Positions 34,654 through 48,527 of a DNA stretch of 64,000 nt are shown piece after piece. Source of the DNA: an uncultured Gemmatimonadales bacterium. GTDB taxonomy: Bacteria > Gemmatimonadota > Gemmatimonadetes > Palauibacterales > Palauibacteraceae. Below the pieces are notes generated by a model. It did no database searches, was not told the origin of the DNA, and was given only the letters and a program-made list of their open reading frames with translations. Numbering within the stretch: the stretch's first letter is position 1; each line of letters opens with the position of its first letter. Both the position numbers and the translations under genes were made by a program. The DNA lies in the NCBI GenBank assembly GCA_963783385.1, contig CAWANJ010000002.1:20908-84907 (forward strand), written 5' to 3'.

Positions 34654-36039
34654 TCAGTGGACCCGGCGCGCCCGGTCCGGGGAGCCGAGGGTGCGGAGCA
34701 CCCGGACCCAGGCAATGGCCTTGGTGGTCGGGTCGCGCTCGAACCACAGCCGTCGCTCGGTGCCGGAGACGAAGAAGGAGTCGGGCGCCGACGGCCGGAA
34801 CTCCAGCGTAGTCCCGCCCGGCGTCTTCAGGTGCAGGGCGCCGTCCGAGGCCGTGAGGCGAAGCGTGTCCCCCTCCGGGAAGCGGTACAGGCCGGCGCAG
34901 GCCGCGATCTCGGCCGGAGGCAGCCGGACGGAGCTCGGCTCCGGCGGCCGCAGGGCGGGGTCGTACAGCCACGCCACCTGGTGGGCGATGTGGGGCGTGG
35001 CCGCGCCGGCGAGGTTGGTGAGCACCGCCACCGTCACCGAGTCGTCCACGTAGCGGACGATGTGGGTGCTGAACCCCTGCCAGCCGCCGGCGTGCTCTAC
35101 GACCCAGTGGCCGGGCGTCCCGTGCACCTCCCAGCCGAACCCGTAGCTGGTGGTCGTGCCGTCGGCGAGGCGCACGGGGGTCCACATCTCCCGCTTCTCG
35201 TCCGATGTGAGAAACGCGTCCCCCGACAGCGCCGCGTCCCAGCGCGCCAGGTCCAGGACCGTGAAGTAGAGGGCCCCGTCGGCGGTGTGCTCCCAGGTGG
35301 GCGACACCCACGCCTGGTTGGCAAGCTGGCCGTCGTCGAGGACGTAGCCGGAGGCCCGGTTCGGGATGATGTCGGGGAGCCCGATCATGCGGGCCGTCTT
35401 CATGCCCAGCGGCGCGAACACCCGGTCGTGCAGGAAGCGGTTCCAGTGGGCGCCGGTCACCCGGTCGATGATGATGCCGAGGAGGACGTAGCCCGTGTTG
35501 CTGTAGCTCCACGTGGTGTCCGGCCGGAAGATGAGCGGCAGCCGCGCGAACAGGCGCGCGAGCTCCGCGTCCGTGTAGTCGCGCCGCAGGTCCACGATCG
35601 GGGGATCGGCGTTCTCGTAGTCCTGGATCCCGGACGTGTGGGTGAGGAGGTTCCGGATCGTGATCCCCTTCCACGCCTCGGCCCCCTCGGGCAGGTACTT
35701 CGTGATCGGGTCGTCCAGCGCCAGCTTCCCGTCACGAGCCAGGAGGAGGACCATGGCCGAGGTGAACTGCTTCCCGACCGAGCCGGACTGGAAGATCGTG
35801 TTGGGCTTCACCGGGACGTCCAGCTCCACGTCCGCGAGGCCGTAACCCTTCGCCTTCACGATCCGCCCCGCCCGGTAGATCCCGAGGGCGAGGCCCGGGA
35901 TGTGGTGGGCGTGCATGTACGCTTCGACCCAGGCGTCGATCGTATCGGAGGCGACCGATGGGGGCGGGGTGGCGGAGAGCGGCGTGGCCAGGACCAGCAG
36001 GGCGAGCGCGGCCGGCACGTGCAGGCGCCTGTGCGCCAT
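34654..36039 (-). CDS. serine hydrolase of the class-C beta-lactamase / PBP4b family (secreted)
   Basis: From ATG 36039 the signal peptide is MAHRRLHVPAALALLVLATPLSA. The SxxK active site is FQSGSVGKQFTSAMVLLL and a YxN motif region is present (WSYSNTGYVLLG). Confidence 0.8.
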   Translation of the reverse strand: MAHRRLHVPAALALLVLATPLSATPPPSVASDTIDAWVEAYMHAHHIPGLALGIYRAGRIVKAKGYGLADVELDVPVKPNTIFQSGSVGKQFTSAMVLLLARDGKLALDDPITKYLPEGAEAWKGITIRNLLTHTSGIQDYENADPPIVDLRRDYTDAELARLFARLPLIFRPDTTWSYSNTGYVLLGIIIDRVTGAHWNRFLHDRVFAPLGMKTARMIGLPDIIPNRASGYVLDDGQLANQAWVSPTWEHTADGALYFTVLDLARWDAALSGDAFLTSDEKREMWTPVRLADGTTTSYGFGWEVHGTPGHWVVEHAGGWQGFSTHIVRYVDDSVTVAVLTNLAGAATPHIAHQVAWLYDPALRPPEPSSVRLPPAEIAACAGLYRFPEGDTLRLTASDGALHLKTPGGTTLEFRPSAPDSFFVSGTERRLWFERDPTTKAIAWVRVLRTLGSPDRARRVH

Positions 36040-36329
36040 GGGCTTCTCCCTTCGAACGTGAACGGTGCGTGGACGCGCCGGCATGTCCCGGCTCGCCGCT
36101 CCTGGCAATGTCGAGGGGAGAGCCGGATCTGCCAACCCCCGGTGCCGATGGGCGAAAGCCCGGCGGCGGCGTGGCCCGGCGGGCGCCGGCGGAGCGAACT
36201 CCATTGCCGGCCTCGTGCCGCCCGGCCATGTTGGGCTCCGACCCGGTGCGACCCAGACGCGGACGGCCCGGCGCCTCGCGCCCGCTCCGCCCGCCGCGGC
36301 TCCCGCAGCTCTCGAGACAGAGGCTCCGC

Positions 36330-38693
36330 ATGCGCCAGCGCACGCTCCCGCTCGCTCTCCTGGCCCTGACCGCCCTCCCGCTGGCGGCGCGTCCCGCCCG
36401 CGGCCAGGCGCCCGTCCCGTACGCGCCCGACTCGGTCACGGCCGCCCGGTATGCGCATGCCGAGCGCTTCCTGCGCGCGGCCACGGCGCCCCTCGTGCTC
36501 CACGCGGACGTCAGGCCCACCTGGCTGCCGGACGGACGCTTGTGGTACCGGGTGCGGACGGCACGCGGGTTCGAGTTCGTCGTCGTCGACCCCGCGCGTC
36601 AGAAGAAGAGCTCCGCCTTCGACCAGGAGAAGGTGGCCGCGGCGCTGTCGGCGGCGGCGGACACGACGTACGACGCCTGGCACCTCCCCTTCCGGTCCTT
36701 CGAGTACGCGCGCGGCGGCAAGGCCATCACCCTCGAGGCGGGCGGGAAGGTCTACACGTGCGACGTCGGCGGAGCGAAGTGCACGGCCGGGAACGCGGCG
36801 TCGGAAGGACCGGGCCGCGACGTGGTCGTCTCCCCCGACGGGAAGCTCGGGGCCTTCCTCAAGGACTGGAACCTGTGGGTGCGCGACCTGGCCACCGGGA
36901 AGGAGACGCAGCTCACCACCGACGGGGTGAAGGATTTCGGCTACGCCACCAACAACGCCGGCTGGATCCGCTCCGACCGGCCCGTGATCCTGTGGTCCCC
37001 GGACTCGAAGCGGATCGCAACCTTCCAGCAGGACCAGCGCGGCGTCGGCGAGATGTACCTGGTCCACACGAAGATCGGCCACCCGACGCTGGACGCGTGG
37101 AAGTACCCGCTGCCGGGCGACAGCGTGATCACCACCATCCAGCGCGTCGTGGTCGACCTGGACGCCGCGGGCGGCCCGAAGGTCGTGCGGCTCGACATGC
37201 CCCCCGACCAGCACCGCTCCGGCGTGTGCGACCACGTGGCGTGCGGGCGTGGGAACCCGGCCGGCGACTTCGCCGACGTGCAGTGGAGCCCGGACGGCTC
37301 GCGGCTGTTCTTCGTGTCGACCTCCCGCGACCACCGGCACGAGACCCTGCGCGAGGCGGACCTTGAGACGGGAAAGGTGCGGGACATCCTGTCCGAGAGC
37401 GCGAAGGACTTCCTCGAGACCGGCTACAACCAGACCGACTGGCGGGTGCTCCCCTCGAAGAACCAGGTCATCTGGTACTCGGAGCGGGACGACTACGGGC
37501 ACCTGTACCTGTACGACCTGAGCACGGGGAAGCTGGAGCACCGGATCACCACGGGGCCGTGGAACGTGCTCCAGGTGCGGCGGGTGGACCCGGCCAGCGG
37601 CACGATCTGGTTCACGGGCGCGGGGCGGGAGCCCGGCGACCCCTACTTCCAGCGCTTCTACAGCGTGCGCACGGACGGGAGCCACCTCACCCTCCTCACC
37701 CCCGACAGCGCCGACCACCAGGTCACGATGTCGCCCGACGGGCGCTGGTTCGTGGACCGGGCCTCGACCCCGCAGACGCCGCCCACGACCGTGCTCCGCG
37801 ACGCGCGGGGCCGGAAGGCGATGGAGCTCGAGCAGGCCGACATCTCGCGGCTGCTGGCCGCCGGGTGGAAGCCGCCGGCGTCGATCACCGTGAAGGCGAG
37901 GGACGGGAAGACGGAGCTGTACGGGCTCCTGTTCACGCCGACGGACCTCGACTCGACGAAGGCCTACCCGATCGTGAACCACATTTACCCGGGCCCCCAG
38001 ACCGGGAGCGTGGGGAGCCGCAGCTTCGAGGCCTCGCGCGGCGACGCGCAGGCGCTGGCCGAGCTCGGCTTCGTGGTGGTCGAGATCGACGCCCTCGGGA
38101 CCCCGATGCGCTCCCACTCCTTCCAGGCGGCCTGGTACGGCGACATGGGCGACAACGGGCTCCCCGACCAGGTGGCGGGGATGAAGGAGCTGGCGGCGCG
38201 CCACCCGTGGATCGACCTGTCGCGGGCCGGGATCTACGGGCACTCGGGCGGGGGCTTCGCCACGGCGGACGCCATGTTCCGCTTCCCCGACTTCTTCCGC
38301 GTCGGGATCGCCGAGGCGGGGAACCACGACAACCGCGAGTACGAGGACGACTGGGGCGAGAAGTGGCAGGGCCTGCTGACCACCGGCCCGGACGGGAAGA
38401 CGAGCTACGACAACCAGGCCAACGAGCTCGTGGCCAGGAATCTGAAGGGGAAGCTCCTCCTGGCCTACGGTACCACGGACGACAACGTGCCGCCCTACAA
38501 CACGCTGCTCGTCGTGGACTCGCTGATCGCGGCCAACAAGGACTTCGACCTGATCGCGCTCCCCAATCGCCGCCACGGCTTCGGGGCCGAGCCCTACATG
38601 GTCCGCCGCCGGTGGGACTACTTCGTCCGGAACCTGCTCGGCGCCGAGCCCCCGCACGAGTTCCGGATCGGGGAGGGCGGCGACGGGGAGTAG
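36330..38693 (+). CDS. S9-family serine peptidase (DPP-IV-like prolyl oligopeptidase family) with N-terminal beta-propeller
   Basis: From ATG 36330 the signal peptide is MRQRTLPLALLALTALPLAARPARGQA. The C-terminal alpha/beta hydrolase has the nucleophile elbow GIYGHSGGGFAT, plus an Asp (TTDDNVPP) and a His (PNRRHGF). Confidence 0.85.
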   Translation: MRQRTLPLALLALTALPLAARPARGQAPVPYAPDSVTAARYAHAERFLRAATAPLVLHADVRPTWLPDGRLWYRVRTARGFEFVVVDPARQKKSSAFDQEKVAAALSAAADTTYDAWHLPFRSFEYARGGKAITLEAGGKVYTCDVGGAKCTAGNAASEGPGRDVVVSPDGKLGAFLKDWNLWVRDLATGKETQLTTDGVKDFGYATNNAGWIRSDRPVILWSPDSKRIATFQQDQRGVGEMYLVHTKIGHPTLDAWKYPLPGDSVITTIQRVVVDLDAAGGPKVVRLDMPPDQHRSGVCDHVACGRGNPAGDFADVQWSPDGSRLFFVSTSRDHRHETLREADLETGKVRDILSESAKDFLETGYNQTDWRVLPSKNQVIWYSERDDYGHLYLYDLSTGKLEHRITTGPWNVLQVRRVDPASGTIWFTGAGREPGDPYFQRFYSVRTDGSHLTLLTPDSADHQVTMSPDGRWFVDRASTPQTPPTTVLRDARGRKAMELEQADISRLLAAGWKPPASITVKARDGKTELYGLLFTPTDLDSTKAYPIVNHIYPGPQTGSVGSRSFEASRGDAQALAELGFVVVEIDALGTPMRSHSFQAAWYGDMGDNGLPDQVAGMKELAARHPWIDLSRAGIYGHSGGGFATADAMFRFPDFFRVGIAEAGNHDNREYEDDWGEKWQGLLTTGPDGKTSYDNQANELVARNLKGKLLLAYGTTDDNVPPYNTLLVVDSLIAANKDFDLIALPNRRHGFGAEPYMVRRRWDYFVRNLLGAEPPHEFRIGEGGDGE

Positions 38694-38725
38694 GACCCGG
38701 TGTCCTGGCCCGCTCGGGTTATGGC
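38447..38725 (+). repeat. copy 1 of a duplicated segment (3-prime end of the S9 peptidase gene plus about 30 bp downstream); the partner is 45495..45772
   Basis: About 90% nucleotide identity to 45495..45772 in the same orientation (GGGAAGCTCCTCCTGGCCTACGGTACCACGGACGACAACGTGCCGCCCTACAAC...). Confidence 0.7.
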
Positions 38726-38810
38726 CCTCTCAGCCGGGAGGGGAGCCGGTGCCTATCTGCTGGGCGAAAAGACGTAGGTGTGCTTCCCATCGCTCAAATG
38801 GAACGCTCCA

Positions 38811-39326
38811 TCACTGACTCGGCCCTCCAGCCATCAACTCGTCGCCGGCAGCGTCGACGAGAACGAGCGTGGTGCCATCCCAATCGTATTGTCCTGTCGA
38901 GCTGACGGCTCGCTGCTGGACCGAGCCTGAGGGATCCTGGAACTGGTTCGTGACGCTCATGGAGAACGCGCCCGTTTGACACTTCGACAGTTGATACGTG
39001 CTGCCATCGGGCAGCGTCACGAGGCCGGATGTGTCGACATGAGCGCCGTTCGGGACGTGATGAACGCATGCCTTCGGCATCCATCCGTCCGGCGTAGCCA
39101 CGCTGTCCTGTGACACGGCCTGGTCGAGCACGAGGGAACCCGCGACGAGTGTCGCGGTGCTGCCGGACGAATCCGTTGTCGTGCAGCATGGCAAACGACG
39201 AGCACCGTCGGCCGTCGTCAGCTCATACCGACCTGAAATGTCCTGGCCAGCGGCTGCTGGATTCGTCACCCCGCAGGCGCTCATTGCGAGTACTGACGTA
39301 ACGACAGCTACGACGGTTGTCTTCAT
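38811..39326 (-). CDS. hypothetical lipoprotein carrying a conserved Cys-motif domain shared with the upstream lipoprotein
   Basis: Lipobox MKTTVVAVVTSVLAMSAC. The domain ...ACVHHVPNGAHVDTSGLVTLPDGSTYQLSKC is shared with the 39476..40738 product. It lies in the lower-GC island. Confidence 0.5.
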   Translation of the reverse strand: MKTTVVAVVTSVLAMSACGVTNPAAAGQDISGRYELTTADGARRLPCCTTTDSSGSTATLVAGSLVLDQAVSQDSVATPDGWMPKACVHHVPNGAHVDTSGLVTLPDGSTYQLSKCQTGAFSMSVTNQFQDPSGSVQQRAVSSTGQYDWDGTTLVLVDAAGDELMAGGPSQ

Positions 39327-39475
39327 AGTATATCCTCCCAGTTGGGATCCTCGCCCGCTGAAGCCACGAGCACTCCGTTTCGTTTCCCAGTCGCGCGAGA
39401 TCTAGCGTGTCTCAACTTCCCGGCCGCCGTCCGTGTTCATGCGTAAGCAGTCCTCCGACGAGTCACACAGCTCGG

Positions 39476-40738
39476 CTACTGGCTTGAGCCGCTTCCGGAG
39501 GGCGCGAGCGGGCAACCCGAGCCGATGCAGACTTTGACGTGGTGGCTGGCGGTCGCCGTGTCGGGCGGAGAAACCGCAGTAAGATCCAGTGTGAAGCTCG
39601 TATCGTTAGCGTACACATAGCGTCTGTACGTGCTATCCGAGCCCACGCTCGAGCACGTCCCTCCGTCCGGGCAGAAGTCCCATGCATATGAGTAGCTCCC
39701 CGACCCGCCGCTAGGATTGGCCGACCACGTGTAGTTGCCTGCGGAGCTGATATAGCCGGTACCATTGATCCCAACGCTGAACGAGGGAACGTTGTGGTAG
39801 AGGTTCACCGTCGTGGCGGTATGGGTCGCGCTGAAATCACAGGATGGCGAAAGACCCGATGTTACATGGTTGTACCAGGTCGGAGAAAGACCGGTACCAT
39901 TGAGATCCTTGGTCGCAACGCCTGTGTAGAAGACCCCATTCTGCGGAAACTGACTGCATTGCGTCAGGCTGTAGACCTCGACGCCCCCCCCGCTTGCCCA
40001 GGTGTAGTTGTCGTTATCGTCCGCGGTCCAATCGGAGCGCGATCCTGTGATGACATCCACGAGAACGATGGTCCATGTGCAGGTCCCGTTCACGCAAGAG
40101 CTGGCCTGGACGCTACCATGGATGGAGTCCCCGGTAGTCGCCATGATGGTATCGCCGTGGAGACAGTCCGAGCCCGAGTTGCAGCGCCAAGAGGCCCCGC
40201 TCCAGAAGGAGCCGCCGTAGTCTCCGTTATACCCGTATTGGAGAACCGGTTGGATGATGTAGGAGCTGTTCTCAAGGCCTGGGAAGGTGTAGTAGACTTC
40301 CTGGCCGGAGTATGAGCCGCTGGGCTTTGCCGGCACCTTCCAGTCTGCGGTCAGCGTACCGAACGTATCGGACGAGAGCGTCGCCGAGTCCCACTCAAGC
40401 CAGCCGTTGAGGGACGGAGAGGCCACTGAATGCGAAGACCCCGCCCATTGCGGTAGGTTCGGGTGCGCTGGATGTGTACACGCGGGAAGTTGGAACGTCG
40501 AACCATCCGAACGTGTGACGCGCCCGTGAAGCCCGACGTGCGCGCCATTGGGAATCTGATGCACGCACGAACGGTCATACAATCCGGCGGGCGTGGCGAC
40601 ATAAGCGCCCTGACTTTCCATGGCTCCAAGGGACGCCCTAAGCCCCTTCGGTCCGGTGGGGTTCTTCTGATCCGAGCAGGCAACGGCCCCAAGCATTACG
40701 GCGATAACCAGTAGAGCTATGGGAGTTCGACCCTTCAT
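39476..40738 (-). CDS. hypothetical Cys/Gly/Ser/Trp-rich secreted lipoprotein (about 420 aa)
   Basis: From ATG 40738 the lipobox is MKGRTPIALLVIAVMLGAVAC. The N-terminal domain SCVHQIPNGAHVGLHGRVTRSDGSTFQLPAC is paralogous to the 38811 gene product. The large C-terminal region is rich in C, G, S, T, N, W and Y, suggesting a beta-sandwich carbohydrate-binding-like fold. About 60% GC. Confidence 0.55.
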   Translation of the reverse strand: MKGRTPIALLVIAVMLGAVACSDQKNPTGPKGLRASLGAMESQGAYVATPAGLYDRSCVHQIPNGAHVGLHGRVTRSDGSTFQLPACTHPAHPNLPQWAGSSHSVASPSLNGWLEWDSATLSSDTFGTLTADWKVPAKPSGSYSGQEVYYTFPGLENSSYIIQPVLQYGYNGDYGGSFWSGASWRCNSGSDCLHGDTIMATTGDSIHGSVQASSCVNGTCTWTIVLVDVITGSRSDWTADDNDNYTWASGGGVEVYSLTQCSQFPQNGVFYTGVATKDLNGTGLSPTWYNHVTSGLSPSCDFSATHTATTVNLYHNVPSFSVGINGTGYISSAGNYTWSANPSGGSGSYSYAWDFCPDGGTCSSVGSDSTYRRYVYANDTSFTLDLTAVSPPDTATASHHVKVCIGSGCPLAPSGSGSSQ

Positions 40739-40937
40739 GCCTGACCTCCCTCCGTGTTGCAGTCGGTCGCGTGCTGTGCGGCGATGTCGCTGCTCGTACC
40801 TCCTCAGCTTGCCATCGGTCATGCCGTATGTGTAACGTTTGAATTGAAGATTTGTGACAAACCCCGGGATCTGGTGGCGTTCAGATTCGGCGAAACTGCG
40901 TTGCGCTGGACCCCGGGGCAGCGGGAGGCTGGCTGGT

Positions 40938-41462
40938 GTGAACTACCGTGCCGCGTTTGCCCGGTACTACGAACCGCTCGTCCGCTACGCCTACACGCTG
41001 ATCGGAGACTCCGACCGGGCTGAGGATCTGGCCCAAGAAGCCTTTGCCCGACTGCTCGAGCAGGACCTTCCAGAGGCCAGCGTCCAGAGCTGGCTTTTCC
41101 GCGTAATCCGAAATCTCGTCCGAGACGGGACTCGCTCGCGGCGGCGGCGGCAGCGGCTACTCGCCGAGGCACGGCCGTACCACCGCCAAATCGACCCTCC
41201 TGATGTGGTGCTCGAGCGGAACGAGACCATTGAAAGGGTAAGCCGGGCGCTCTCGAAACTGCCGGAACGCGACCGCACGATGCTCCTCCTCCGACACCGG
41301 GGCTTCAGCTACGCCGAGATCGCCCAGCGCACAGGAGTAGCGCGAAGCTCGGTGGGGACGCTTCTGGCCCGAGCACTGCGCCGGTTCGAACGTGCCTATC
41401 AGAAGGGGAACGAGGATCGACCCGGCGACGCGGCCTCAAAAGCCGGAGGGAGCGTGGCATGA
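40938..41462 (+). CDS. ECF-type RNA polymerase sigma-70 family factor
   Basis: Region 2 (YEPLVRYAYTLIGDSDRAEDLAQEAFARLL...WLFRVIRNLVRDG) and region 4 (LPERDRTMLLLRHRGFSYAEIAQRTGVARSSVGTLLARALRRF). The GTG at 40938 follows a ggagg RBS. An alternative start is the ATG at 40854. Confidence 0.8.
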   Translation: MNYRAAFARYYEPLVRYAYTLIGDSDRAEDLAQEAFARLLEQDLPEASVQSWLFRVIRNLVRDGTRSRRRRQRLLAEARPYHRQIDPPDVVLERNETIERVSRALSKLPERDRTMLLLRHRGFSYAEIAQRTGVARSSVGTLLARALRRFERAYQKGNEDRPGDAASKAGGSVA

Positions 41463-42271
41463 CACTCAGGCCGACCGAGAGTGGCCACGTCTGTGACGGA
41501 ACGCTCATGGCTTTCCTCGATGAAGAGCTCAAGGCAGCGCAACGGGCCGCCGTGGGCCGCCATGTGCACGCGTGCCGTGCATGCGGCGAGCGGCTGGCAC
41601 GGCTGCGGACCGCGTCTAACCAGCTGTCTGGGGCGCTCCCAGCCCTGCACGACGATCCGGTCCTGCCAGCAGACGCCGTCTCCTTATCCCTGACTCCTCG
41701 CGCATTGACCGGGCGGCAGGGCCGGACGGGCCAAGCGCCGCGGAGTCGACGACGGCCCGTCAGCCCGCGTCGTCGGTGGCGGGCCGGTGTGTGGGCAGCA
41801 GCGCTGGTCGTTCTCTCCGCCGGAGCCCTGGCAGCTTTCCCCGGCTCCCCGGTGCACACCTGGCTGTCCCGGAAGCTAGGCGACCTGGCGCGAGGACAGT
41901 CGGCCGCCGCGCGTGGCTCTCCAACGCCGCCGCCGCCCGTGGTCTCCATCCTTCCCTACGAGGGATCGGTCACCGTACGACTCACCGGCACCACGTCCGC
42001 AACCCACGTCCATGTGCGGCTCGTGGCAGGCACCGAAGCCCGCGTCGAAGCGCCGGGCGCCACTTTCCGAGCGGGCCCTGGATTTGTAGACGTTTCGGAA
42101 GGGAGTGAAAGCGAACATATCACAATCGACCTCCCGCGAAGCGTCCGGTCCGCCCGCGTGGAAATCGACGGAAGGCTGGCGGTGATCAAGGATGGGGAGC
42201 TCCTCCGGCGTGTGGGAGCAGCCACGGGAACAAGCGACAGCTCCGTTGAGCTCGGGGGAGGAGTGCCATGA
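41459..42271 (+). CDS. zinc-finger (ZAS-type HxxxCxxC) transmembrane anti-sigma factor
   Basis: The start overlaps the sigma factor stop (ATGA). N-terminal HVHACRACGERL motif, a single TM helix AGVWAAALVVLSAGALAAF, and a periplasmic C-terminal domain. Confidence 0.65.
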   Translation: MTLRPTESGHVCDGTLMAFLDEELKAAQRAAVGRHVHACRACGERLARLRTASNQLSGALPALHDDPVLPADAVSLSLTPRALTGRQGRTGQAPRSRRRPVSPRRRWRAGVWAAALVVLSAGALAAFPGSPVHTWLSRKLGDLARGQSAAARGSPTPPPPVVSILPYEGSVTVRLTGTTSATHVHVRLVAGTEARVEAPGATFRAGPGFVDVSEGSESEHITIDLPRSVRSARVEIDGRLAVIKDGELLRRVGAATGTSDSSVELGGGVP

Positions 42272-42816
42272 CGCGGCTCCTCCTCGCGGTGCTGATCGTA
42301 CCGCTTCCGGCACGTCCAGCGCTTGGTGCGTGGTTGGAGGCGTCGACTGCGATGCGTTCCGTCTATGGGGGTCAGGGGAGCCTATCGACGCCACCGGCCG
42401 GTTCAGCCCCGTCAGCAGCCCACGCCGATACAACCGCAGGCAGTATCGCCGGGCGCCTATCCGCCAACGGAAGTGGCCCCCCGCTGGCCTCGGCGACCGT
42501 CGAGGCCCAGGGCCCGGGCGGCTCCCGCGTGATCCATGCGAACGTGGACGGCGTCTACCGAATCTTGGGACTCAAGCCCGGAGTGTGGTGGCTAAGCGCG
42601 CGCGCCCTCGACTACGCCTCGACGAAGGTCGCGGTTACACTTCCCGCGGGCGGCCACGTGAAGCTCAACCTCGCTCTTGACCTCCAGCCCGTAACTCTGC
42701 CGAGCCTGAAGGTCGCAGCAAAGCGCCGATGTGTCGGCGGCACGCTCCGCATTCGGGAATGGGAACCCGCTCGAAGCAGCGCAGGCGGCAGACCTCCTGA
42801 GCCTCAGCCCGGCTAG
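42268..42816 (+). CDS. CarboxypepD_reg-like domain protein, probably the N-terminal part of a TonB-dependent-receptor-like outer membrane protein interrupted by a frameshift
   Basis: Signal peptide MTRLLLAVLIVPLPARPALGA. CarboxypepD_reg domain GSIAGRLSANGSGPPLASATVEAQGPGGSRVIHANVDGVYRILGLKPGVWWLSARALDYASTKVAVTL. The start overlaps the anti-sigma stop. Its 3-prime end overlaps the next ORF in another frame. Confidence 0.5.
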   Translation: MTRLLLAVLIVPLPARPALGAWLEASTAMRSVYGGQGSLSTPPAGSAPSAAHADTTAGSIAGRLSANGSGPPLASATVEAQGPGGSRVIHANVDGVYRILGLKPGVWWLSARALDYASTKVAVTLPAGGHVKLNLALDLQPVTLPSLKVAAKRRCVGGTLRIREWEPARSSAGGRPPEPQPG

Positions 42817-44566
42817 CGCCTCCGCGACGGTTGACCTCTCCACAGCGGCACGCGGCGTCTTAGCTGGGGCGCCGCAGACGAAGGCGAGCACCCTCTTCAT
42901 GCCGGCGGCAGCGCGGAATGGCGGACGAGTCCTGCTGGACGGGGCGCCGGTTGTGGCTCCCGTGGAGCTTGCCGGACTCCTGTCACCTTTCCCGGCCGGG
43001 GTCTGGGGCACGGTACAGCTCGATCGGGCCGGCGCGCCCGTTCGTTTCGAGGCAGGCGGCATGGGCCTCCTCCGCCTCGACACCCGGGAGCCGAGAGGCC
43101 ACGCGATCCGAGCGTCCGGCTCCCTGGGGCAGCTGCAATCAACCCTGCAGGCTGCGGGTCCTCTAGGAGAGGGCGACTTCCTCGTCGGTGCCCGGGCGCT
43201 GAGCGCGGCCGGTTCCGCTTTTCCAACCGGCTCGAGAGGCTCATTGCCCTACGGGTACGCGGACGTGCTGGCCCGCCTGGACCTTCCGGCTGGCCCGGGC
43301 AGGGTGTCTGCGACGGGCTACTGGAACCGCGAGTCGCTCAGCGGCCCCGGATCGGCCAGCGCTTCGCTCCTGGCGTGGGGAAACACTGCAGGGTCCGTCC
43401 GCTATGTGGTACCTATCGGCCGGGGCGGCATGCGACTGAACGCGGCAGCCGGACGATTCCGGATCGCCGTGCCAGGGGGTAACGCAGAAGCCAAACTTCG
43501 GGAACACTCATTCGATGCACGAGCCGAGGCGGAGGTCTTTGGCCGCGCGGGTCCGGTGGACGTGACCGGCGGCCTCGCGTGGGACGGGGTGCGGCTGTCG
43601 CGCACGGCCCTCGACTCCGCCGATGGCGCGCCGCCCGTTCCTGGGGCCAACCTGGCGGGCGGCGTCGTATCACCCTATCTGGAGGTCAACGTCGACCTGA
43701 CCCCGGCCCTCTCTCTGCGAACCGGTCTGCGGGCCGAGGCCGCCAGCTACGGCGCCCTCGGCTGGGACCCAAGGGCCACTCTGGAGTGGCGTGCGGGACC
43801 CCGGCTATCCGTGTACGCAGCCGCCGGGCGTTCGCACCAGCTCGTGGAGCGTGAAAGCGTCACGGGCTGTGATCCGGCCTCAGGGGTTTGCGGAGCGAGC
43901 AGCCTGTTCCTCGACGGAGCAAGCCATGTGGCTGCCGGCTTCAAAGCCCGGCCGTCGGTCCCGTTGACCCTCGGCCTCGATATGTACTTGGCAAACTACG
44001 GGGAGGCCGTCACCGCTCTGCGGGCCAGGTCAATCGGAGCTGAGATCCGCGGAACGTGGCGAGGGGACGGCTGGAGCACGTGGCTCGACTACTCGCTGGC
44101 CAGCACCCGGTCGTCTGAGCCACTCGGGATCGGCGGCGGCGCAGCACAGTTGGAGCAGCGACTCCTCGCTGGCTTCTCCGCCGAGATTCCCCCGGCCATC
44201 CACGTGGCGCTCCGGCTCCGGGTGAGCGCCGGCTTACCATACACTCCCCTTCCGATAGTGGGCTCGACATCTTCCGCAGGTGCGGGGTCCGGATATCCCT
44301 GGCCCGTAATAAGTCCCCCGGGCTCCGGCGGACAGCCGTCCGCACTCGCACTGCCGGGATCATGGGCGCGGCTAGACGGAACGGTCTCTCGAAGCTGGCA
44401 CGCCCGCGTCTTCGGCGCCGACGTGATGCTCACTCCCTACCTTGAGGTCCTGAACGCCGCCGGAACAAGAGACGCGCCGTTCTACTGGAGCCGCTCCGGC
44501 GCTGCGCAGCGATCAATTGGTGCCGTGCCGCTCCTGGCGGCTGTCGGCGTGCGCTGGGGACTCTAG
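42731..44566 (+). CDS. outer-membrane beta-barrel (TonB-dependent receptor-like) C-terminal part
   Basis: 611 aa rich in G, S, A and aromatics with alternating beta-strand patterns and a C-terminal ...AAVGVRWGL (terminal aromatic then L). The plug-like N-terminus (NPLEAAQAADLLSLSPASA) follows the CarboxypepD_reg ORF in a different frame. Together they span 766 codons, the size of one receptor gene. Confidence 0.5.
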   Translation: MSAARSAFGNGNPLEAAQAADLLSLSPASASATVDLSTAARGVLAGAPQTKASTLFMPAAARNGGRVLLDGAPVVAPVELAGLLSPFPAGVWGTVQLDRAGAPVRFEAGGMGLLRLDTREPRGHAIRASGSLGQLQSTLQAAGPLGEGDFLVGARALSAAGSAFPTGSRGSLPYGYADVLARLDLPAGPGRVSATGYWNRESLSGPGSASASLLAWGNTAGSVRYVVPIGRGGMRLNAAAGRFRIAVPGGNAEAKLREHSFDARAEAEVFGRAGPVDVTGGLAWDGVRLSRTALDSADGAPPVPGANLAGGVVSPYLEVNVDLTPALSLRTGLRAEAASYGALGWDPRATLEWRAGPRLSVYAAAGRSHQLVERESVTGCDPASGVCGASSLFLDGASHVAAGFKARPSVPLTLGLDMYLANYGEAVTALRARSIGAEIRGTWRGDGWSTWLDYSLASTRSSEPLGIGGGAAQLEQRLLAGFSAEIPPAIHVALRLRVSAGLPYTPLPIVGSTSSAGAGSGYPWPVISPPGSGGQPSALALPGSWARLDGTVSRSWHARVFGADVMLTPYLEVLNAAGTRDAPFYWSRSGAAQRSIGAVPLLAAVGVRWGL

Positions 44567-44632
44567 GACGGAACGGCCCGTCGTCGAATCTGTCGGCTCG
44601 AACCTCAGGAAGGCGGCTCTCCCAATGAGAGA

Positions 44633-44672
44633 GCTCCGAGCTTCCGTTCGGAGCTTCCCGGCTGTGAGCCGG
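44633..44672 (+). terminator. tandem GC hairpins downstream of the receptor-like gene
   Basis: The 7-bp stem gctccga-gcttccgt-tcggagc is immediately followed by ccggc-tgtga-gccgg, 67 nt past the stop at 44566. Confidence 0.35.
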
Positions 44673-44959
44673 CACGAACGACGGTCGGGTCCGGTGTACA
44701 GAACAGCCTTCGGTTGCGCCGGTGCTTGCTCTCACCGGACTCAATCGCAACTACATCTAATCCGAAGCGACAGATACGAGATTCTCGGTACTCGCGAAGG
44801 TGCCAATCGTCGATCCTCCTGAATTGTCACTACGGAGTGCAGTTTCCGGGCAGTATTGGCACGGGGGAACCTCATGCACCGCCTGCAACGCCGCAGTCCC
44901 AACTGAGAATGGAAGCCAACCTCACGACAGTACTGGGCCCGAGCGGCGCGGACTGGCAC

Positions 44960-45494
44960 CACGAGGGCCACGCTCATCAACGCCATGGCCAGAATCTGAA
45001 TGGCACGCTTCCCGATACCCTACTCACCAAGGTGTCGAGCTCACACTCTCGATCAAGTCCTGTGAAATCGGAAACGTGTCAACTCGGAGGCGGTCCGAGC
45101 CGTACGGCCCCGACGCATTGCGAACCGACACCGCCGGGCTCCGCCCCTCAGCCCCCCGGCACCACCAGCCCGATCCCCTTCGAGGCCATGGCCGCGTTGA
45201 AGGCCGGCACGGTCGTGCCCACGAGCCGCTCGAAGTCGGCCCGCGCCTTCTCCAGCCGCCCTTCGAGGAGGTGGAAGACCTCGATGTCCTGCGTGGTGGG
45301 TGCGAGGTCGGGGCTCCCGGCCACGTCGCCCGCGCCGTCGCCCACCTCGCCGGCCAGCCACACGAGCTTGAGGTAGAGCTTCATCTCGGCCGGATACGTC
45401 TTGACGTCCCCGGCGGCCAGGTAGCGCTGGAACAGGAGGTCCTCGACGGCGAGCGCGCTGTCGTCCACGGCCCGGGCGGCCTCCATGACCGACA
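44960..45494 (-). repeat. displaced duplicate (about 88 to 90% identity) of 47975..48527: the 3-prime end of the BNR/sortilin-like gene plus its downstream intergenic region and the start of the next gene
   Basis: Colinear nucleotide similarity, for example ...TCATCAACGCCATGGCCAGAATCTGAATGGCACGCTTC... against ...TCATCAACGCCATAGCCAGAATCCAAATGGCTCGCTTC... Similarity continues through CGACGCATTGCGA...GGCCTCCATGACCGAC and ends abruptly at 45494. Confidence 0.7.
45148..45486 (-). pseudogene. truncated copy of the C-terminal ~110 codons of the BNR/sortilin-like protein (compare 48176..48514)
   Basis: The translation MEAARAVDDSALAVEDLLFQRYLAAGDVKTYPAEMKLYLKLVWLAGEVGDGAGDVAGSPDLAPTTQDIEVFHLLEGRLEKARADFERLVGTTVPAFNAAMASKGIGLVVPGG is near-identical to the C-terminus of ORF 48176..48919. 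No N-terminal part is present. Confidence 0.7.
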
Positions 45495-45740
45495 GGGAAG
45501 CTGCTCCTGGCCTACGGGACCACGGACGACAACGTGCCGCCCTACAACACGCTGCTCGTCGTGGACTCGCTCATCGCGGCGGGCAAGGACTTCGACCTCA
45601 TCGCGCTGCCCAACCGGCGGCACGGCTTCGGGGCCGAGCCCTACATGGTCCGCCGGCGGTGGGACTACTTCGTCCGAAACCTCCTGGGCGCCGAGCCCCC
45701 GCACGAGTTCCGGATCGGGGAGGAACGCGGGGAGGAGTAG
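45495..45740 (+). pseudogene. truncated copy of the last ~80 codons of the S9 peptidase gene (compare 38447..38693)
   Basis: The translation ...LLLAYGTTDDNVPPYNTLLVVDSLIAAGKDFDLIALPNRRHGFGAEPYMVRRRWDYFVRNLLGAEPPHEFRIGEERGEE matches the end of the S9 peptidase at 36330..38693. It is joined directly to the BNR-gene fragment at 45494/45495. Confidence 0.7.
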
Positions 45741-45776
45741 GATAGGATGTTCTGGTCTGCACCCGCTACGGAGCGT

Positions 45777-46607
45777 CTAGCCTGGAGGAGCGCCCGTATA
45801 GGATTTCAGCCAGAGGACGATGGCACCGCAGCGCATCGACACCTCGGTGGTCAGCTCGGGCGGAAGCTGGTCGGGCGGGTAGATCTCGACGGCGGTCACG
45901 TCGTACTTGGGGTAATAATCGGCGGGGCGCCCGGTCACGGTCTGGGCGCGGTTCCTGAGCCAGTCGGCTCGCCGACCATTCACAAAGTACTGGGGCTCGC
46001 AGTACTTGCCCAGCGGCCGACGCATCTTCGTGCCGGGGCCGTAGACGTTGCGGGTGGCCAGCAGCGTGCCCAGCTCACCGTGATAGCGCTCAATGTCCCG
46101 CTCCGTGACGAGCTGCCCTCGGCCCGCCGCCACGCGTCGCTCGAACCTTTCCAGTGCGCCGGGCGTTCCGCGCACAGTGGCCCGGAGCTCCTCTTGAGGT
46201 ATCGGCTTGACGGGAACTTCAATGTCGGCCGTGAGGGTCTCTCCGGGGCGCAGGGTGGTCCCACGCTGCACCGGGGCCGACCCGAGGAAGTCGACCTCGA
46301 TCGTGATCCGTCCCGGCTTCACGTCGGCGAACCGGTAGCGCCCATCCTTGCCGGTGAACGCAGTCCGCTCTCGATCGACAAGCTCCACCCGTGCCCCCTC
46401 GACCGGCGAGTGGAAGTCCGCTCGCGTGATCGTGCCCTGGACGACGGCTCCCGTGTCGATCGCCGCCTTCCAGCCTCCGATCGCGGCTCTCCGCGGCGCA
46501 CGGACGGCGCGCAGCGCGGGAGCGCCCGTGAGGATTATGCTGGCTACGGCGGCGACCGAAGCTATTCCGAGCGACGGCGACCAACTGGGGTGCCTCGGGA
46601 GCCTCAA
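45777..46607 (-). CDS. secreted CarboxypepD_reg-like domain protein
   Basis: Signal peptide MRLPRHPSWSPSLGIASVAAVASIILTGAPALRA. Domain VQGTITRADFHSPVEGARVELVDRERTAFTGKDGRYRFADVKPGRITIEVDFLG. A ~150-aa C-terminal region follows. Confidence 0.6.
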   Translation of the reverse strand: MRLPRHPSWSPSLGIASVAAVASIILTGAPALRAVRAPRRAAIGGWKAAIDTGAVVQGTITRADFHSPVEGARVELVDRERTAFTGKDGRYRFADVKPGRITIEVDFLGSAPVQRGTTLRPGETLTADIEVPVKPIPQEELRATVRGTPGALERFERRVAAGRGQLVTERDIERYHGELGTLLATRNVYGPGTKMRRPLGKYCEPQYFVNGRRADWLRNRAQTVTGRPADYYPKYDVTAVEIYPPDQLPPELTTEVSMRCGAIVLWLKSYTGAPPG

Positions 46608-47811
46608 GACCCCGCACCTTCAGCCTGCCCTGTGCCTCGGCCCGGGCCCGCGTTCAGCTCCGGCGCCAGGACCTGCAATCGCGTGTCTCCGGCCGAGGTC
46701 TGCACCACGCTGAAGGCGAGGCTGGTGCCGCAAACGCTCCCCAGCACCGAGTCGACGCGGCGCCGGGCCAGCACCCTGGGTGGTCCGGCGCCAGCGATGT
46801 CCAGCACCTCGACGATCGTGTCGAACTGGCCTCGGAAGAAGCGTGGGGAAGTCGGCTTTGGGTCCGCAGTCGCCCAGTGAGCGTCCGGAATCAGCGCATA
46901 CACCCAAAGTCGGCCCTGGTTGTCCAGCGCGAGCGCGTTCATCATGGCGGGAGGCGGACCCAAAGTATAGAGATCGCTGAGCCGCTTCGGCGAGAGGTCC
47001 TGTGTCGTGGGAAACCAGTCAGCGCGTCGAATTAGGACCCGCGTGACTGCACGGTCGTCGGACCAATGATAGAGTGCGTAGCGCCATAGGCCCGCGGCCC
47101 AAAAACCGCCCTGCTGATCGGGTGCGAGAATCCATTGGTCCAGCGGTCGTAGCCGGGACGATGGCTCCCCAAACGACGCAGGGTGTCCCCGGACGGATCG
47201 AGGAGTTCAAAGAGGCGCGTGTCGCCCTCGCTCGCTCCCAGCGGACGGCTGTGGACGAGGATGGTATCGGGCCCGATCAAGGCCAGGTCACTCACGGGTC
47301 GACGAGTGCGGAACAGATGGGCCACCCGGCCCGCCAATGTCAGGGTGACCATCCGTGCGTTCGAGTTGTCGGCCACATATAGCGTGTCCCCGCGGCCGAC
47401 CAGCACCCTTAGGTGCGAGCCAAATTCACGCGGTCCTGCCCCCGGGCCTCCAATGTCTCGAGAGAAGCGCCCGTGACGACTGTAGACGGCAAGCTGACCG
47501 CCTCCTACTATGGCGCTAACGACGAAGCGGCCCGATCCAAGCCGTCCAACGGAGCAGGCGCGGAACGGTGCGTCCGCCATGATAGAGGCCGGATCCTCGG
47601 AGCTCCCAAGTTGCACGACCGAATCCAACGTGATCGACCCGGCCAGCCGCTGTGCTGTTTCGACCAAGGCAGGCCTGACGTCCGTGTGGAAACGGCTGTT
47701 GCCAGGCTGTGTGTCAGGTGGTGTCGAACGACCACATGCGGTGGATAGTAGACTGAGGCCAGTCCCAGCAAGACAGAGAGCCCTCGGTCCCCTACAAATG
47801 AATCCGAGCAT
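46604..47811 (-). CDS. six-bladed beta-propeller-type lipoprotein (paralogue of 56434..57621), reading frame interrupted around 46963 to 47032; possible pseudogene
   Basis: N-terminal part ORF 47032..47811 (lipobox MLGFICRGPRALCLAGTGLSLLSTAC). C-terminal part ORF 46604..46963 in another frame. Both parts align with the intact 56434 gene (GGPGAGPREF against GDGPGEF, and LWVYALIPDA against DVWARRLLPDT). The combined length of 402 codons matches the paralogue. Confidence 0.55.
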
Positions 47812-47974
47812 TCCGCGAAGGATGCGGGCGCCTAGTGGGTGGGGTCTAGCAGATGTCTGGGCCCCGGAACTTCCTCCGGCCCTCCCACTCGGCGGCATGT
47901 AGATGTGGATGGGCAACCGCACTCTCCCGGGACGGCCCACCACTCGCGTCGTGAATCCCACTGAAATTCTAGGG

Positions 47975-48527
47975 GCGAACCAACGCCCTGAGATACCTTC
48001 ATCAACGCCATAGCCAGAATCCAAATGGCTCGCTTCATGGCAGTCTTCTTACCGAAGGGTTGACCTCAACCCATCTTCATCAATTTCGACAAATTTGACA
48101 ATGTGTCAACACCGACCCGGTCCAAACCCACTCCACTCCGACGCATTGCGAGTCGATATCGTCGGGCGCCGCCCCTCAGGCCCCCGGCACCACCAGCCCG
48201 ATGCCCTTCGACTCCATGGCCGCGTTGAAAGCCGGAACGGTCGTGCCCACGAGGCGCTCGAAATCGGCCCGCGCCTTCTCGAGCCGCCCCTCGAGGAAGT
48301 GGAACACCTCCACGTCCTGCGTGGTGGGGGCGAGGTCGGGACTCCCGGCCACGTCGCCGGCGCCGTCGCCGACCTCGCCGGCCAGCCACACGAGCTTGAG
48401 GTAGAGCTTCATCTCGGCCGGGTAGGTCTTGACGTCCCCGGCGGCCAGGTAGCGCTGGAACAGGAGGTCCTCGACGGCGAGCGCGCTGTCGTCCACGGCC
48501 CGGGCGGCCTCCATGACCGACGCCGAG
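47975..48527 (-). repeat. copy 2 (in situ) of the duplicated segment whose displaced partner is 44960..45494
   Basis: See 44960..45494. Confidence 0.7.
48095..48109. promoter_or_regulatory. perfect palindrome TTGACA-atg-TGTCAA in the intergenic region upstream (minus-strand sense) of the beta-propeller lipoprotein locus
   Basis: 6-3-6 inverted repeat whose half-site equals the sigma-70 -35 consensus. It lies about 57 nt upstream of the conserved MKRAIWILAMALMKV start at 48038. A partial copy (cgtgtcaac) is kept in the displaced repeat at about 45066. Confidence 0.35.

What the first reader, a model, noticed from the sequence alone, without database searches (positions are those of the whole stretch)
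38811..40738. Two adjacent lipoproteins share a novel Cys-motif N-terminal domain
Just after the lipobox, both products contain C-V-H-x-[IV]-P-N-G-A-H-V-x(5-8)-G-x-V-T-x-x-D-G-S-T-[FY]-Q-L-x-x-C. The larger protein adds about 330 residues rich in Cys, Gly, Ser, Thr, Asn, Trp and Tyr, a lectin or beta-sandwich-like composition. They form an apparent two-gene operon divergent from the ECF sigma factor gene, making them the most likely regulon targets. I could not assign either to a known family.
Basis: seen in the sequence. Interest (0 to 1): 0.55.

Follow-up and report, generated by a model that had tools for sequence, protein, structure and literature searches.

The report
Divergent glutamic peptidase lipoprotein with shared module
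The larger of the two neighbouring lipoproteins is an unannotated, very divergent relative of the acid "glutamic" peptidases, and the Cys motif it shares with its small neighbour is a real, widespread, still uncharacterised 45-residue module whose role (pro-domain, inhibitor or binding unit) is unproven.

Summary
The shared motif is real: BLASTP gives E 2e-13, and profile-profile comparison gives 99.4% probability over 60 columns. It is a disulfide-closed module of about 45 residues. It is not confined to this pair: 971 cluster representatives carry it, in at least three architectures.

Two details of the finding need correcting. In the small protein the module sits mid-protein (residues 74-120), not just after the lipobox. 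The small gene is also frameshifted in this window by an extra C at 38816; the intact product has 190 aa.

The large protein is not familyless. A confident AlphaFold model (pLDDT 86) best matches scytalidoglutamic peptidase (family G1, Foldseek E 1e-8), then neprosin. Gln163 and Glu254 are invariant. Gln163 aligns with the catalytic Gln53 of G1. Glu254 is only inferred to match Glu136. Two homologues hit Pfam Peptidase_A4 just below threshold.

Its layout is lipobox, module, disordered linker, acidic catalytic beta-sandwich, then a PKD/Ig-like domain. That resembles a zymogen, but the module is the most conserved region, so a disposable pro-domain is uncertain.

The ECF sigma link is not conserved: none of 16 other loci has a sigma gene nearby. 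The small protein's function is open.

This is a new variant of a known kind, of moderate interest.

The parts
39476..40738 (-). Gene B: 420-aa lipoprotein, a divergent G1-type glutamic-peptidase homologue
   Evidence: ORF. GGAGGGAGG lies 5 nt upstream of the ATG at 40738. An identical 420-aa protein is called in public assemblies (P0001). 95 homologues were found, all 'hypothetical'. AF2 pLDDT 85.9.
40676..40738 (-). B signal peptide and lipobox (MKGRTPIALLVIAVMLGAVA|C21)
   Evidence: Matches the PROSITE PS51257-type pattern. Cys21 is >=90% conserved in A1. 73/95 family members match the pattern; many of the rest are N-terminally truncated.
40469..40609 (-). B N-terminal Cys module (residues 44-90; Cys58 and Cys87 invariant)
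   Evidence: AF2 gives five short strands with pLDDT ~90. It is the most conserved region of the family, with pairwise identity 0.48.
40415..40468 (-). B variable linker (residues 91-108), a possible maturation site
   Evidence: pLDDT <50 for residues 98-108. Pairwise identity 0.17, length-variable. Pro108 is invariant.
39794..40414 (-). B catalytic-type beta-sandwich (residues 109-315); Gln163 codon 40250-40252, Glu254 codon 39977-39979
   Evidence: Foldseek: 2ifw/2ifr/1s2b at E 1e-8 to 3e-8, TM(target) 0.66; neprosin at E 5e-6. Gln163 and Glu254 are invariant in 41/41 sequences. The register IIQ163PV = ILQ53TG is recovered by hhalign and by a G1 HMM. pI 4.2.
39524..39781 (-). B C-terminal PKD/Ig-like domain (residues 320-405)
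   Evidence: The family profile hits phage Ig-like decoration proteins 5lxk and 8zvi at E 1e-3. Homologues hit Pfam PKD families. All-beta in the model.
38753..39326 (-). Gene A: small lipoprotein, 190 aa when intact; in this window a 1-nt insertion at 38816 truncates it to 171 aa (stop at 38811)
   Evidence: GGAGG lies 8 nt upstream of the ATG. Lipobox LAMSA|C18.
38967..39107 (-). A copy of the Cys module (residues 74-120; Cys87 and Cys116)
40854..41462 (+). Divergent ECF sigma factor gene (context; the start may be 40938)
   Evidence: Pfam Sigma70_r2, Sigma70_r4_2 and Sigma70_ECF. Called as 174 aa in L001.
41459..44566 (+). Co-directional anti-sigma gene (zf-HC2) and CarboxypepD_reg/TonB-dependent receptor gene (context; the receptor is split in the window by a 1-nt insertion at 42754)

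Best explanation
Gene B encodes a lipid-anchored, extracytoplasmic, disulfide-bonded enzyme. It belongs to a previously unannotated and very divergent branch of the glutamic (G1/eqolisin-type) peptidases. The family is found mainly in Gemmatimonadota, with some members in Acidobacteriota.

By analogy with Gln53/Glu136 of scytalidoglutamic peptidase, Gln163 and Glu254 on the concave sheet of the beta-sandwich would activate water and stabilise the tetrahedral intermediate. The acidic catalytic domain (pI ~4.6) fits an acid-favoured enzyme.

The N-terminal 45-residue disulfide-closed all-beta module is joined by a disordered, hypervariable linker. I infer that it is a pro-domain-like or regulatory unit, as in pro-neprosin (all-beta pro-domain, then a linker, then a beta-sandwich). 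The C-terminal PKD/Ig-like domain would be a spacer or binding domain.

Gene A encodes a separate small lipoprotein family that has taken up the same module in the middle of an unrelated beta-rich scaffold. Its function is open. It could modulate the peptidase, or it could bind whatever partner the module recognises.

Shown: the shared module, the fold, the invariant residues, the Gln register, the lipobox conservation and the taxonomic spread. Inferred: peptidase activity, the Glu254 equivalence, the pro-domain role, and any A-B interaction.
For: Fold and catalytic residues:
- AF2 pLDDT 85.9, pTM 0.75.
- The top Foldseek PDB hits are the three scytalidoglutamic peptidase entries (E 1e-8 to 3e-8, prob 1.00, TM 0.66), then five neprosin entries.
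- Gln163, Pro164, Val165 and Glu254 are invariant in 41/41 sequences.
- hhalign against a 34-sequence G1 alignment gives E 2e-3 to 5e-3. A home-built G1 HMM also matches (best member E 8e-5). Both align YIIQ163PV with AILQ53TG, TADWKVP with SATANVP and GDSIHGSVQAS with GDSIQMSVTAT.
- Pfam Peptidase_A4 scores 20.7 bits (cut-off 22.3) on homologue P0057 and 15.4 bits on P0037, over profile positions 8-130.
- The strand order matches G1: Gln on the 4th long strand, Glu on the 10th (inference).

Zymogen-like layout:
- Catalytic domain pI is 4.6. The module is more basic than the catalytic domain in 38/38 sequences.
- The linker is disordered and hypervariable.
- The neprosin precedent for an all-beta pro-domain plus linker is in PMC9343461.
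- The defining G1 features are taken from PMC3009609.

The module as a shared unit.
Against: - No member passes Pfam's gathering score, and profile-profile probabilities are low (2-15%). The homology call therefore rests mainly on predicted structure.
- hhalign does not align Glu254 with Glu136. That equivalence comes from topology and spacing only, because I could not inspect coordinates.
- Other proteins of this concanavalin-like fold are not peptidases: YncM, a U. maydis lectin-like protein and an ulvan lyase are also among the hits.
- The module is more conserved than the catalytic domain (0.48 vs 0.41). That is unusual for a discarded pro-peptide.
- The small family's module is acidic (pI 4.2-6.4), and A-B adjacency is not conserved. 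Both weaken the trans-inhibitor idea.
- No enzymology exists for any member.
Confidence: 0.6

Rival explanations
1. The module is a permanent functional part of both proteins, not a pro-domain or inhibitor. It would be a small disulfide-stabilised binding unit, for a cell-envelope component, a partner outer-membrane protein or a substrate class. It was recruited independently by the peptidase family, by the small lipoprotein family and by at least one further family. On this reading A and B are neighbours by recent local history only.
For: - The module is the most conserved region of the large family.
- It occurs in at least 3 architectures, and in tandem in P0265.
- Homology between A and B is limited to the module.
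- Adjacency of the two families was seen only in this organism.
- The small-family module has a different charge from the large-family module.
Against: - Its position directly upstream of a disordered linker and a peptidase domain is the classic zymogen layout.
- No ligand or partner can be named.
- There is no similarity to any known binding domain.
Confidence: 0.35
2. A is a dedicated pro-peptide-like inhibitor or chaperone of B. This would be analogous to free-standing pro-peptide-like inhibitors of subtilisins (MEROPS I9) and cathepsins (I29). It would use the shared module to occupy the peptidase cleft in trans.
For: - The two genes are adjacent on the same strand.
- The module is shared at 43% identity.
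- Weak, non-significant structural leads from the poor A model point to beta-barrel protease-inhibitor lipoproteins: U-Omp19 7mhw (prob 0.95, E 0.15) and marine protease inhibitor 6iy4 (prob 0.85, E 0.74).
Against: - The A model is low confidence (pLDDT 61), so those matches may be meaningless.
- Thirteen large-family loci screened by tblastn have no small-family gene within 6 kb, and the one informative small-family locus (L016) has no large-family gene directly upstream.
- A's module is acidic, like the catalytic domain it would have to bind.
- Arg76, typical of the large-family module, is Leu in the small family.
Confidence: 0.15
3. B is not a peptidase. It is a non-catalytic lectin or adhesin, or a glycan-active enzyme, of the concanavalin-like fold, anchored at the cell surface.
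For: - The fold is shared with lectin-like proteins and lyases that also appear in the hit list: 9h9s, 4hfs, 6d2c, 4qhw.
- The PKD/Ig-like C-terminal domain is common in glycan-binding surface proteins.
- Some homologues lie near SusD/TonB-dependent receptor or glycoside hydrolase genes.
Against: - The best and only high-TM matches are glutamic peptidases.
- The Gln falls in the G1 register within a conserved hydrophobic-hydrophobic-Gln motif, and both Gln and Glu are invariant.
- The sub-threshold Pfam hits are to Peptidase_A4, not to lectin or GH families.
Confidence: 0.15
4. The pair is the regulon output of the adjacent ECF sigma factor.
For: - The arrangement is divergent, with a 115-199 bp intergenic region.
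- One loose ECF-like TGAAC-N15-GGT match lies on the B strand at 40883..40860.
Against: - That pattern is expected by chance 0.14 times per 200 bp.
- The sigma has its own operon with an anti-sigma and a TonB-dependent receptor.
- No ECF sigma lies near the large-family gene in 16 other loci.
Confidence: 0.15

Closest known systems
MEROPS family G1 (eqolisins; Pfam PF01828 Peptidase_A4): scytalidoglutamic peptidase, aspergilloglutamic peptidase, bacterial pepG1
   Same: Same two-sheet beta-sandwich fold (best structural match). Conserved Gln in the same sequence register, and an invariant Glu on the topologically equivalent strand. Acidic catalytic domain with disulfides. An N-terminal extension precedes the mature domain. 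Secreted or extracytoplasmic.
   Different: About 18% identity or less. No member reaches the Pfam threshold. Several G1 signature motifs are replaced: GIDG by FPGL, (A/Y)WYEWYP by ASW-x-C, EDFE by EVY. B is lipoprotein-anchored rather than freely secreted. Its N-terminal extension is a highly conserved Cys-bridged module instead of a poorly conserved pro-peptide. It has an extra C-terminal PKD/Ig-like domain. It is found in Gemmatimonadota and Acidobacteriota.
Neprosin (glutamate-class prolyl endopeptidase; DUF4409 pro-domain plus DUF239 catalytic domain)
   Same: Second-best structural match. Same architecture: an all-beta pro-domain, a flexible linker, then a beta-sandwich catalytic domain. 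The N-terminal part is basic or neutral and the catalytic part is acidic, the basis of neprosin's pH switch.
   Different: Neprosin uses a Glu/Glu pair with an essential Gln, and its pro-domain has ~100 residues with a Lys plug in the linker. Here there is a Gln/Glu pair, a 45-residue module, no detectable sequence similarity, and no conserved basic residue in the linker.
Free-standing pro-peptide-like protease inhibitors (MEROPS I9, I29)
   Same: A small separate protein carries a copy of the segment that precedes the protease domain, and in this genome it is encoded next to the protease.
   Different: In A the shared segment is embedded in a larger unrelated scaffold. Adjacency is not conserved. 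No inhibition has been shown. No inhibitor of this kind is known to me for glutamic peptidases (own knowledge).

Membership tests
Glutamic peptidases, MEROPS G1 / Pfam PF01828 | Sequence match to the curated family model above its gathering score | tested here: not met
   B has no Pfam hit even at E<=10. The best homologue, P0057, scores 20.7 bits against a cut-off of 22.3; P0037 scores 15.4 bits. The A1 profile does not find SGP or AGP in PDB sequences at E<=10.
Glutamic peptidases, MEROPS G1 / Pfam PF01828 | Two seven-stranded-sheet beta-sandwich fold of SGP/AGP | tested here: met
   Foldseek of a pLDDT-86 model: 2ifw, 2ifr and 1s2b are ranks 1-3, E 1e-8 to 3e-8, prob 1.00, TM (target-normalised) 0.65-0.66.
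Glutamic peptidases, MEROPS G1 / Pfam PF01828 | Catalytic Gln (SGP Gln53 / precursor Q107) strictly conserved | tested here: met
   Gln163 is invariant in 41/41 sequences. It aligns to Gln53 in hhalign against 2- and 34-sequence G1 alignments and in G1-HMM alignments of several members. The definition is from PMC3009609.
Glutamic peptidases, MEROPS G1 / Pfam PF01828 | Catalytic Glu (SGP Glu136 / precursor E190) strictly conserved | tested here: inconclusive
   Glu254 is invariant (41/41). It lies on the 10th strand, 91 residues after the Gln (83 in SGP), with similar spacing to the following Cys/[FY]-Pro. However, hhalign places it 7-8 residues off, and I could not inspect coordinates to measure the Gln-Glu geometry.
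Glutamic peptidases, MEROPS G1 / Pfam PF01828 | Acid pH optimum and pepstatin-insensitive proteolytic activity | not testable with these tools
   Only indirect evidence: the catalytic domain has pI 4.6 +/- 0.7 across 38 members.
Neprosin-type glutamate peptidases (DUF239) | Glu/Glu catalytic pair and DUF4409 pro-domain | tested here: not met
   No Pfam hit to the neprosin domains. The residue in the G1-Gln position is Gln, not Glu. The structural match is weaker than to G1 (E 5e-6, TM 0.44-0.56).
Bacterial lipoproteins (PROSITE PS51257 lipobox) | n-region with K/R, hydrophobic h-region, then [LIVMFWSTAG]2-[LIVMFYSTAGCQ]-[AGS]-C within the first ~35 residues | tested here: met
   B: GAVAC21. 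A: AMSAC18. The pattern is present in 73/95 large-family and 16/19 small-family sequences. The pattern was written from my own knowledge of PS51257. Lipidation itself was not tested.
Pro-peptide-like protease inhibitors | Physical binding to and inhibition of the cognate protease | not testable with these tools
   No complex prediction tool was available. Conserved gene linkage, tested as a proxy, was not found.

The most novel reading that the evidence does not exclude
The 45-residue Cys-bridged module is a new kind of latency or inhibitory unit for glutamic peptidases. In cis it keeps the lipid-anchored enzyme inactive until an acid or envelope cue releases it. In the small lipoprotein family it acts in trans as the first dedicated proteinaceous inhibitor of glutamic peptidases. 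Together they would form a protease/inhibitor pair at the cell surface of Gemmatimonadota.
Probability: 0.12. Interest if true: 0.65.

Novelty: new variant of a known kind. Interest (0 to 1): 0.45.

Why it matters
- Glutamic peptidases are regarded as rare acid proteases, known mostly from fungi, with very few bacterial examples characterised (PMC3009609, PMC6154417).
- This family has 95 clusters at 90% identity. Several hundred 50%-identity representatives carry its N-terminal module. Pfam and NCBIfam do not detect it. It would add a lipoprotein-anchored branch in abundant but poorly studied soil phyla (Gemmatimonadota, Acidobacteriota).
- It offers a candidate for extracellular protein degradation in acidic soils.
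- It defines a new, highly conserved mini-domain suitable for a Pfam entry.
- If the module proves to be a latency or inhibitor element, it would be a new way of regulating this protease class.
- For annotation, it replaces 'hypothetical protein' with a testable function.

Tried and rejected
Searches that gave nothing:
- Pfam and NCBIfam on both proteins gave nothing significant. Weak DUF6799, Fn3 and zinc-finger hits on the module (E 0.02-0.07) were judged to be chance beta-hairpin resemblance.
- phmmer and profile searches of PDB sequences with B, the module (A6) and the small family (A9) gave only the Ig-like C-terminal domain for the B family profile. Antibody light chains, TRPM3 and AcrF6 appeared at non-significant E-values and were rejected.
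- Scanning the 64 kb window in six frames for further copies of the module or the catalytic domain found none.

Tools that failed or were unavailable:
- The search for related loci with the 41-sequence alignment failed because no stretch was conserved enough. A 10-sequence alignment worked.
- A local hhalign run of the small family against the large family failed on file format. It was redone with protein comparison.

Inconclusive or negative tests:
- The AF2 model of the small protein was poor (pLDDT 61) and had no significant fold match.
- hhalign in local and global modes did not recover the Glu254-Glu136 pairing.
- No conserved gene neighbourhood was found for either family.
- Sigma-70 promoter and intrinsic terminator scans of 38600-41000 found nothing.
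- A loose ECF promoter pattern gave one match of little weight.

Idea rejected:
- A is not a truncated duplicate of B that includes the first catalytic strand. The BLAST alignment runs on to GQYDWDGTTL/NGWLEWDSATL, but the profile-profile alignment stops at the module.
Full report
**1. What is in the sequence**

The window is very GC-rich (about 72%), with a dip to 64-67% between 38 and 48 kb. Two genes lie on the minus strand.

- B is 39476..40738 and encodes 420 aa. Its ATG is preceded by GGAGGGAGG.
- A starts at 39326, with GGAGG 8 nt upstream.
- B is divergent from an ECF sigma gene (40854..41462). That gene is followed, co-directionally and with overlapping stops and starts, by a zf-HC2 anti-sigma gene and a CarboxypepD_reg/TonB-dependent receptor gene.
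- A is convergent with a DPP-IV/S9 peptidase gene.

Both products begin with a K/R-containing n-region, a hydrophobic stretch and a lipobox: GAVA|C21 in B and AMSA|C18 in A. The same pattern is present in 73 of 95 large-family and 16 of 19 small-family sequences. Many of the exceptions are N-terminally truncated gene calls.

**2. The shared motif is real, but it is described slightly wrongly**

- BLASTP aligns A 76-154 with B 47-121 at 43% identity, E 2e-13.
- Profile-profile comparison of the two families gives 99.4% probability (E 4.8e-22). It is restricted to 60 columns, A 69-128 against B 40-99.
- The core is V-A-T-P-x-G-x4-C-V-H-x-[VI]-P-N-G-A-x-V-x5-G-x-V-T-x2-D-G-S-x-[FY]-Q-[IL]-P-x-C, with the two Cys invariant.
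- In B it begins at residue 44, after a variable spacer.
- In A it is in the middle of the protein (residues 74-120). It is preceded by a family-specific segment (G-x-Y-x-L-x3-D-G-x2-L-P-C-C...) and followed by about 70 further residues.

The 3' limit of the finding (38811) is an artefact. Relative to an independent Logan assembly of the same organism (L001, 99.9% identical over 6.5 kb), the window carries three single-base insertions.

- The one at 38816 shifts the frame of A. The intact product is 190 aa (P0096) and ends at 38753. The C-terminal 20 residues are still readable in the other frame.
- The one at 42754 splits the TonB-dependent receptor.
- The third is at 44908.

**3. The large protein is a divergent glutamic peptidase homologue**

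B has 95 homologues at 28-55% identity, all unnamed. Where named, their contigs come from Gemmatimonadota, with a few from Acidobacteriota and one labelled Deltaproteobacteria.

Neither Pfam nor NCBIfam matches B.

An AlphaFold2 model built on a 41-sequence alignment is confident (pLDDT 85.9, pTM 0.75). It shows:

- a small five-stranded module, residues 45-97, pLDDT about 90;
- a disordered linker, residues 98-108, pLDDT below 50;
- a large beta-sandwich, residues 109-315;
- a beta domain, residues 320-405.

The last domain is PKD/Ig-like (family profile against PDB; Pfam PKD hits in homologues).

Foldseek against the PDB ranks the three scytalidoglutamic peptidase entries first (E 1e-8 to 3e-8, prob 1.00, TM 0.66 on the target). 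Five neprosin entries follow (E 5e-6 to 2e-5), then YncM and a fungal lectin-like protein.

In the family alignment Gln163-Pro-Val, Trp179, Trp222, Glu254 and four Cys are invariant.

I recovered the true SGP and AGP sequences from the PDB and built a 34-sequence G1 alignment.

- hhalign gives weak scores (E 2e-3 to 5e-3, probability 2-15%) but a consistent register. YIIQ163PV pairs with AILQ53TG, TADWKVP with SATANVP, FPG with VGI(DG), and I-x-x-GDSIHGSVQAS with ITISEGDSIQMSVTAT.
- A G1 HMM built here aligns several family members in the same register.
- Pfam's own Peptidase_A4 model scores 20.7 bits on homologue P0057 (gathering score 22.3) and 15.4 bits on P0037, over profile positions 8-130.

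G1 peptidases are defined by a Gln/Glu dyad (Q107/E190 in SGP precursor numbering), an acid optimum and pepstatin insensitivity (PMC3009609).

- The Gln is therefore met.
- The Glu is probable but not proven. Glu254 is invariant. It sits on the topologically equivalent 10th strand, 91 residues after the Gln (83 in SGP), with the same spacing to the following Cys/[FY]-Pro as in AGP. hhalign nevertheless misplaces it, and I could not inspect coordinates.
- The catalytic domain is strongly acidic (pI 4.6 +/- 0.7), as expected for an acid peptidase.

**4. The module**

A 49-position profile of the module was searched against 1.84 billion cluster representatives. It finds 971 proteins at E<=1e-3 and 183 at E<=1e-10. 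Of the 120 new sequences among the best 150:

- most have the module followed by the catalytic domain;
- at least 13 belong to the small family (its N-region, or its C-region, or both, flanking the module);
- three have the module followed by an unrelated ~120-residue C-terminus;
- one has two tandem modules;
- one has an extra N-terminal domain.

The module has no match in Pfam or in PDB sequences.

Within the large family it is the most conserved region. Mean pairwise identity is 0.48, against 0.41 for the catalytic domain, 0.24 for the Ig-like domain and 0.17 for the linker.

It is near-neutral to basic (pI 7.6) and more basic than the catalytic domain in 38 of 38 sequences. The small-family module is acidic.

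**5. How it most likely works**

The layout is an all-beta N-terminal unit, a disordered hypervariable linker, and then an acidic beta-sandwich with a Gln/Glu pair. This is the layout of pro-neprosin. There an all-beta pro-domain and its linker occupy the cleft, and they are released by a pH switch (PMC9343461).

I therefore favour a membrane-anchored glutamic peptidase whose N-terminal module is a pro-domain-like or regulatory unit. The unusual conservation of the module counts against a simply discarded pro-peptide. It keeps open the rival view that the module is a permanent binding unit shared by several lipoprotein families.

For A, a trans-inhibitor role is attractive but weakly supported.

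- Adjacency with B is seen only in this organism.
- Thirteen large-family loci screened by tblastn with 6 kb flanks have no small-family gene.
- Three further large-family loci, annotated by Pfam only, show no ECF sigma.
- The one informative small-family locus (L016) has no same-strand gene directly upstream; L017 and L018 are uninformative.
- A's module has the wrong charge to bind an acidic catalytic domain.
- The A model is poor (pLDDT 61). Its only suggestive fold matches, to beta-barrel protease-inhibitor lipoproteins, are not significant.

**6. The sigma factor**

The divergent arrangement is confirmed, but the regulon inference is not supported.

- The sigma gene heads its own operon with an anti-sigma and a TonB-dependent receptor.
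- None of the 16 other large-family loci has an ECF sigma nearby. Their contexts vary and often include transposases or integrases.
- One loose ECF-like -35/-10 match on the B strand (40883..40860) has a chance expectation of 0.14 per 200 bp.
- No terminator or sigma-70 promoter was predicted around the pair. Co-transcription of B and A across the 149-nt gap remains open.

**7. Verdict**

The module is real and novel, and both products are very probably lipoproteins. 'No known family' and 'sigma regulon' do not hold.
- The large protein is best filed as a new, divergent variant of the G1-type glutamic peptidases, with a novel conserved N-terminal module.
- The small protein is a member of a separate, uncharacterised lipoprotein family that shares that module.
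- Interest is moderate. The family extends a rare protease class into abundant soil phyla and defines a new mini-domain, but the function rests on predicted structure and conserved residues only.

Noticed in passing
window 38816, 42754, 44908: There are three single-base insertions relative to an independent assembly of the same organism (L001, 99.9% identical). Two of them break ORFs: the small lipoprotein gene, and the CarboxypepD_reg/TonB-dependent receptor, which is 765 aa in L001 but split into 42268-42816 and 42731-44566 here. These are probably assembly indel errors rather than pseudogenes.
   Followed up: partly
window 38000-48000: GC content is 64-67%, against about 72% in the flanks. 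The stretch holds the lipoprotein pair, the ECF sigma/anti-sigma/receptor operon and several long ORFs (44714-51506) with no Pfam hit. It may be an acquired or otherwise atypical region.
   Followed up: partly
window 40854-44566 (+): This is an operon of an ECF sigma, a zf-HC2 anti-sigma and a TonB-dependent receptor with an N-terminal CarboxypepD_reg domain. It resembles a FecI/FecR/FecA-like arrangement, but with a zinc-finger anti-sigma rather than a FecR-type one.
   Followed up: no
window 34654-38693: A beta-lactamase-family (serine hydrolase) gene lies on the minus strand at 34654-36204. A DPP-IV/prolyl oligopeptidase S9 gene lies on the plus strand at 35958-38693, convergent with the small lipoprotein gene. 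The two long ORFs overlap as listed, so at least one start is upstream of the true one. Together with B this gives several peptidase-type genes in 6 kb.
   Followed up: no
P0340, P0288, P0302; P0265; P0320 (proteins): These are further architectures carrying the Cys module. P0340, P0288 and P0302 have a lipobox, the module and an unrelated ~120-aa C-terminus. P0265 has two tandem modules before the catalytic domain. P0320 has an extra ~170-aa N-terminal region before the module and catalytic domain.
   Followed up: partly
P0092, P0094, P0095 (large-family homologues): The most distant members carry a ~40-residue Ala/Pro-rich insertion inside the module, between the PNGA-like turn and the second Cys. 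The two Cys and the catalytic-domain invariants are retained.
   Followed up: no
P0024, P0041, P0048, P0063, P0084 (large-family homologues): In place of the PKD/Ig-like domain, these have C-terminal repeats ('...SGNTITLKD..GHTG.ITLSGA...') that give a Pfam TraI_2B hit (E 2.8e-7 in P0024). The C-terminal appendage is therefore exchangeable within the family.
   Followed up: no
L017, L020, L021 (loci of homologues): Both large- and small-family genes are often flanked by IS21, Mu-type or mutator transposases, or by a phage-type integrase. This suggests the genes are mobile.
   Followed up: no
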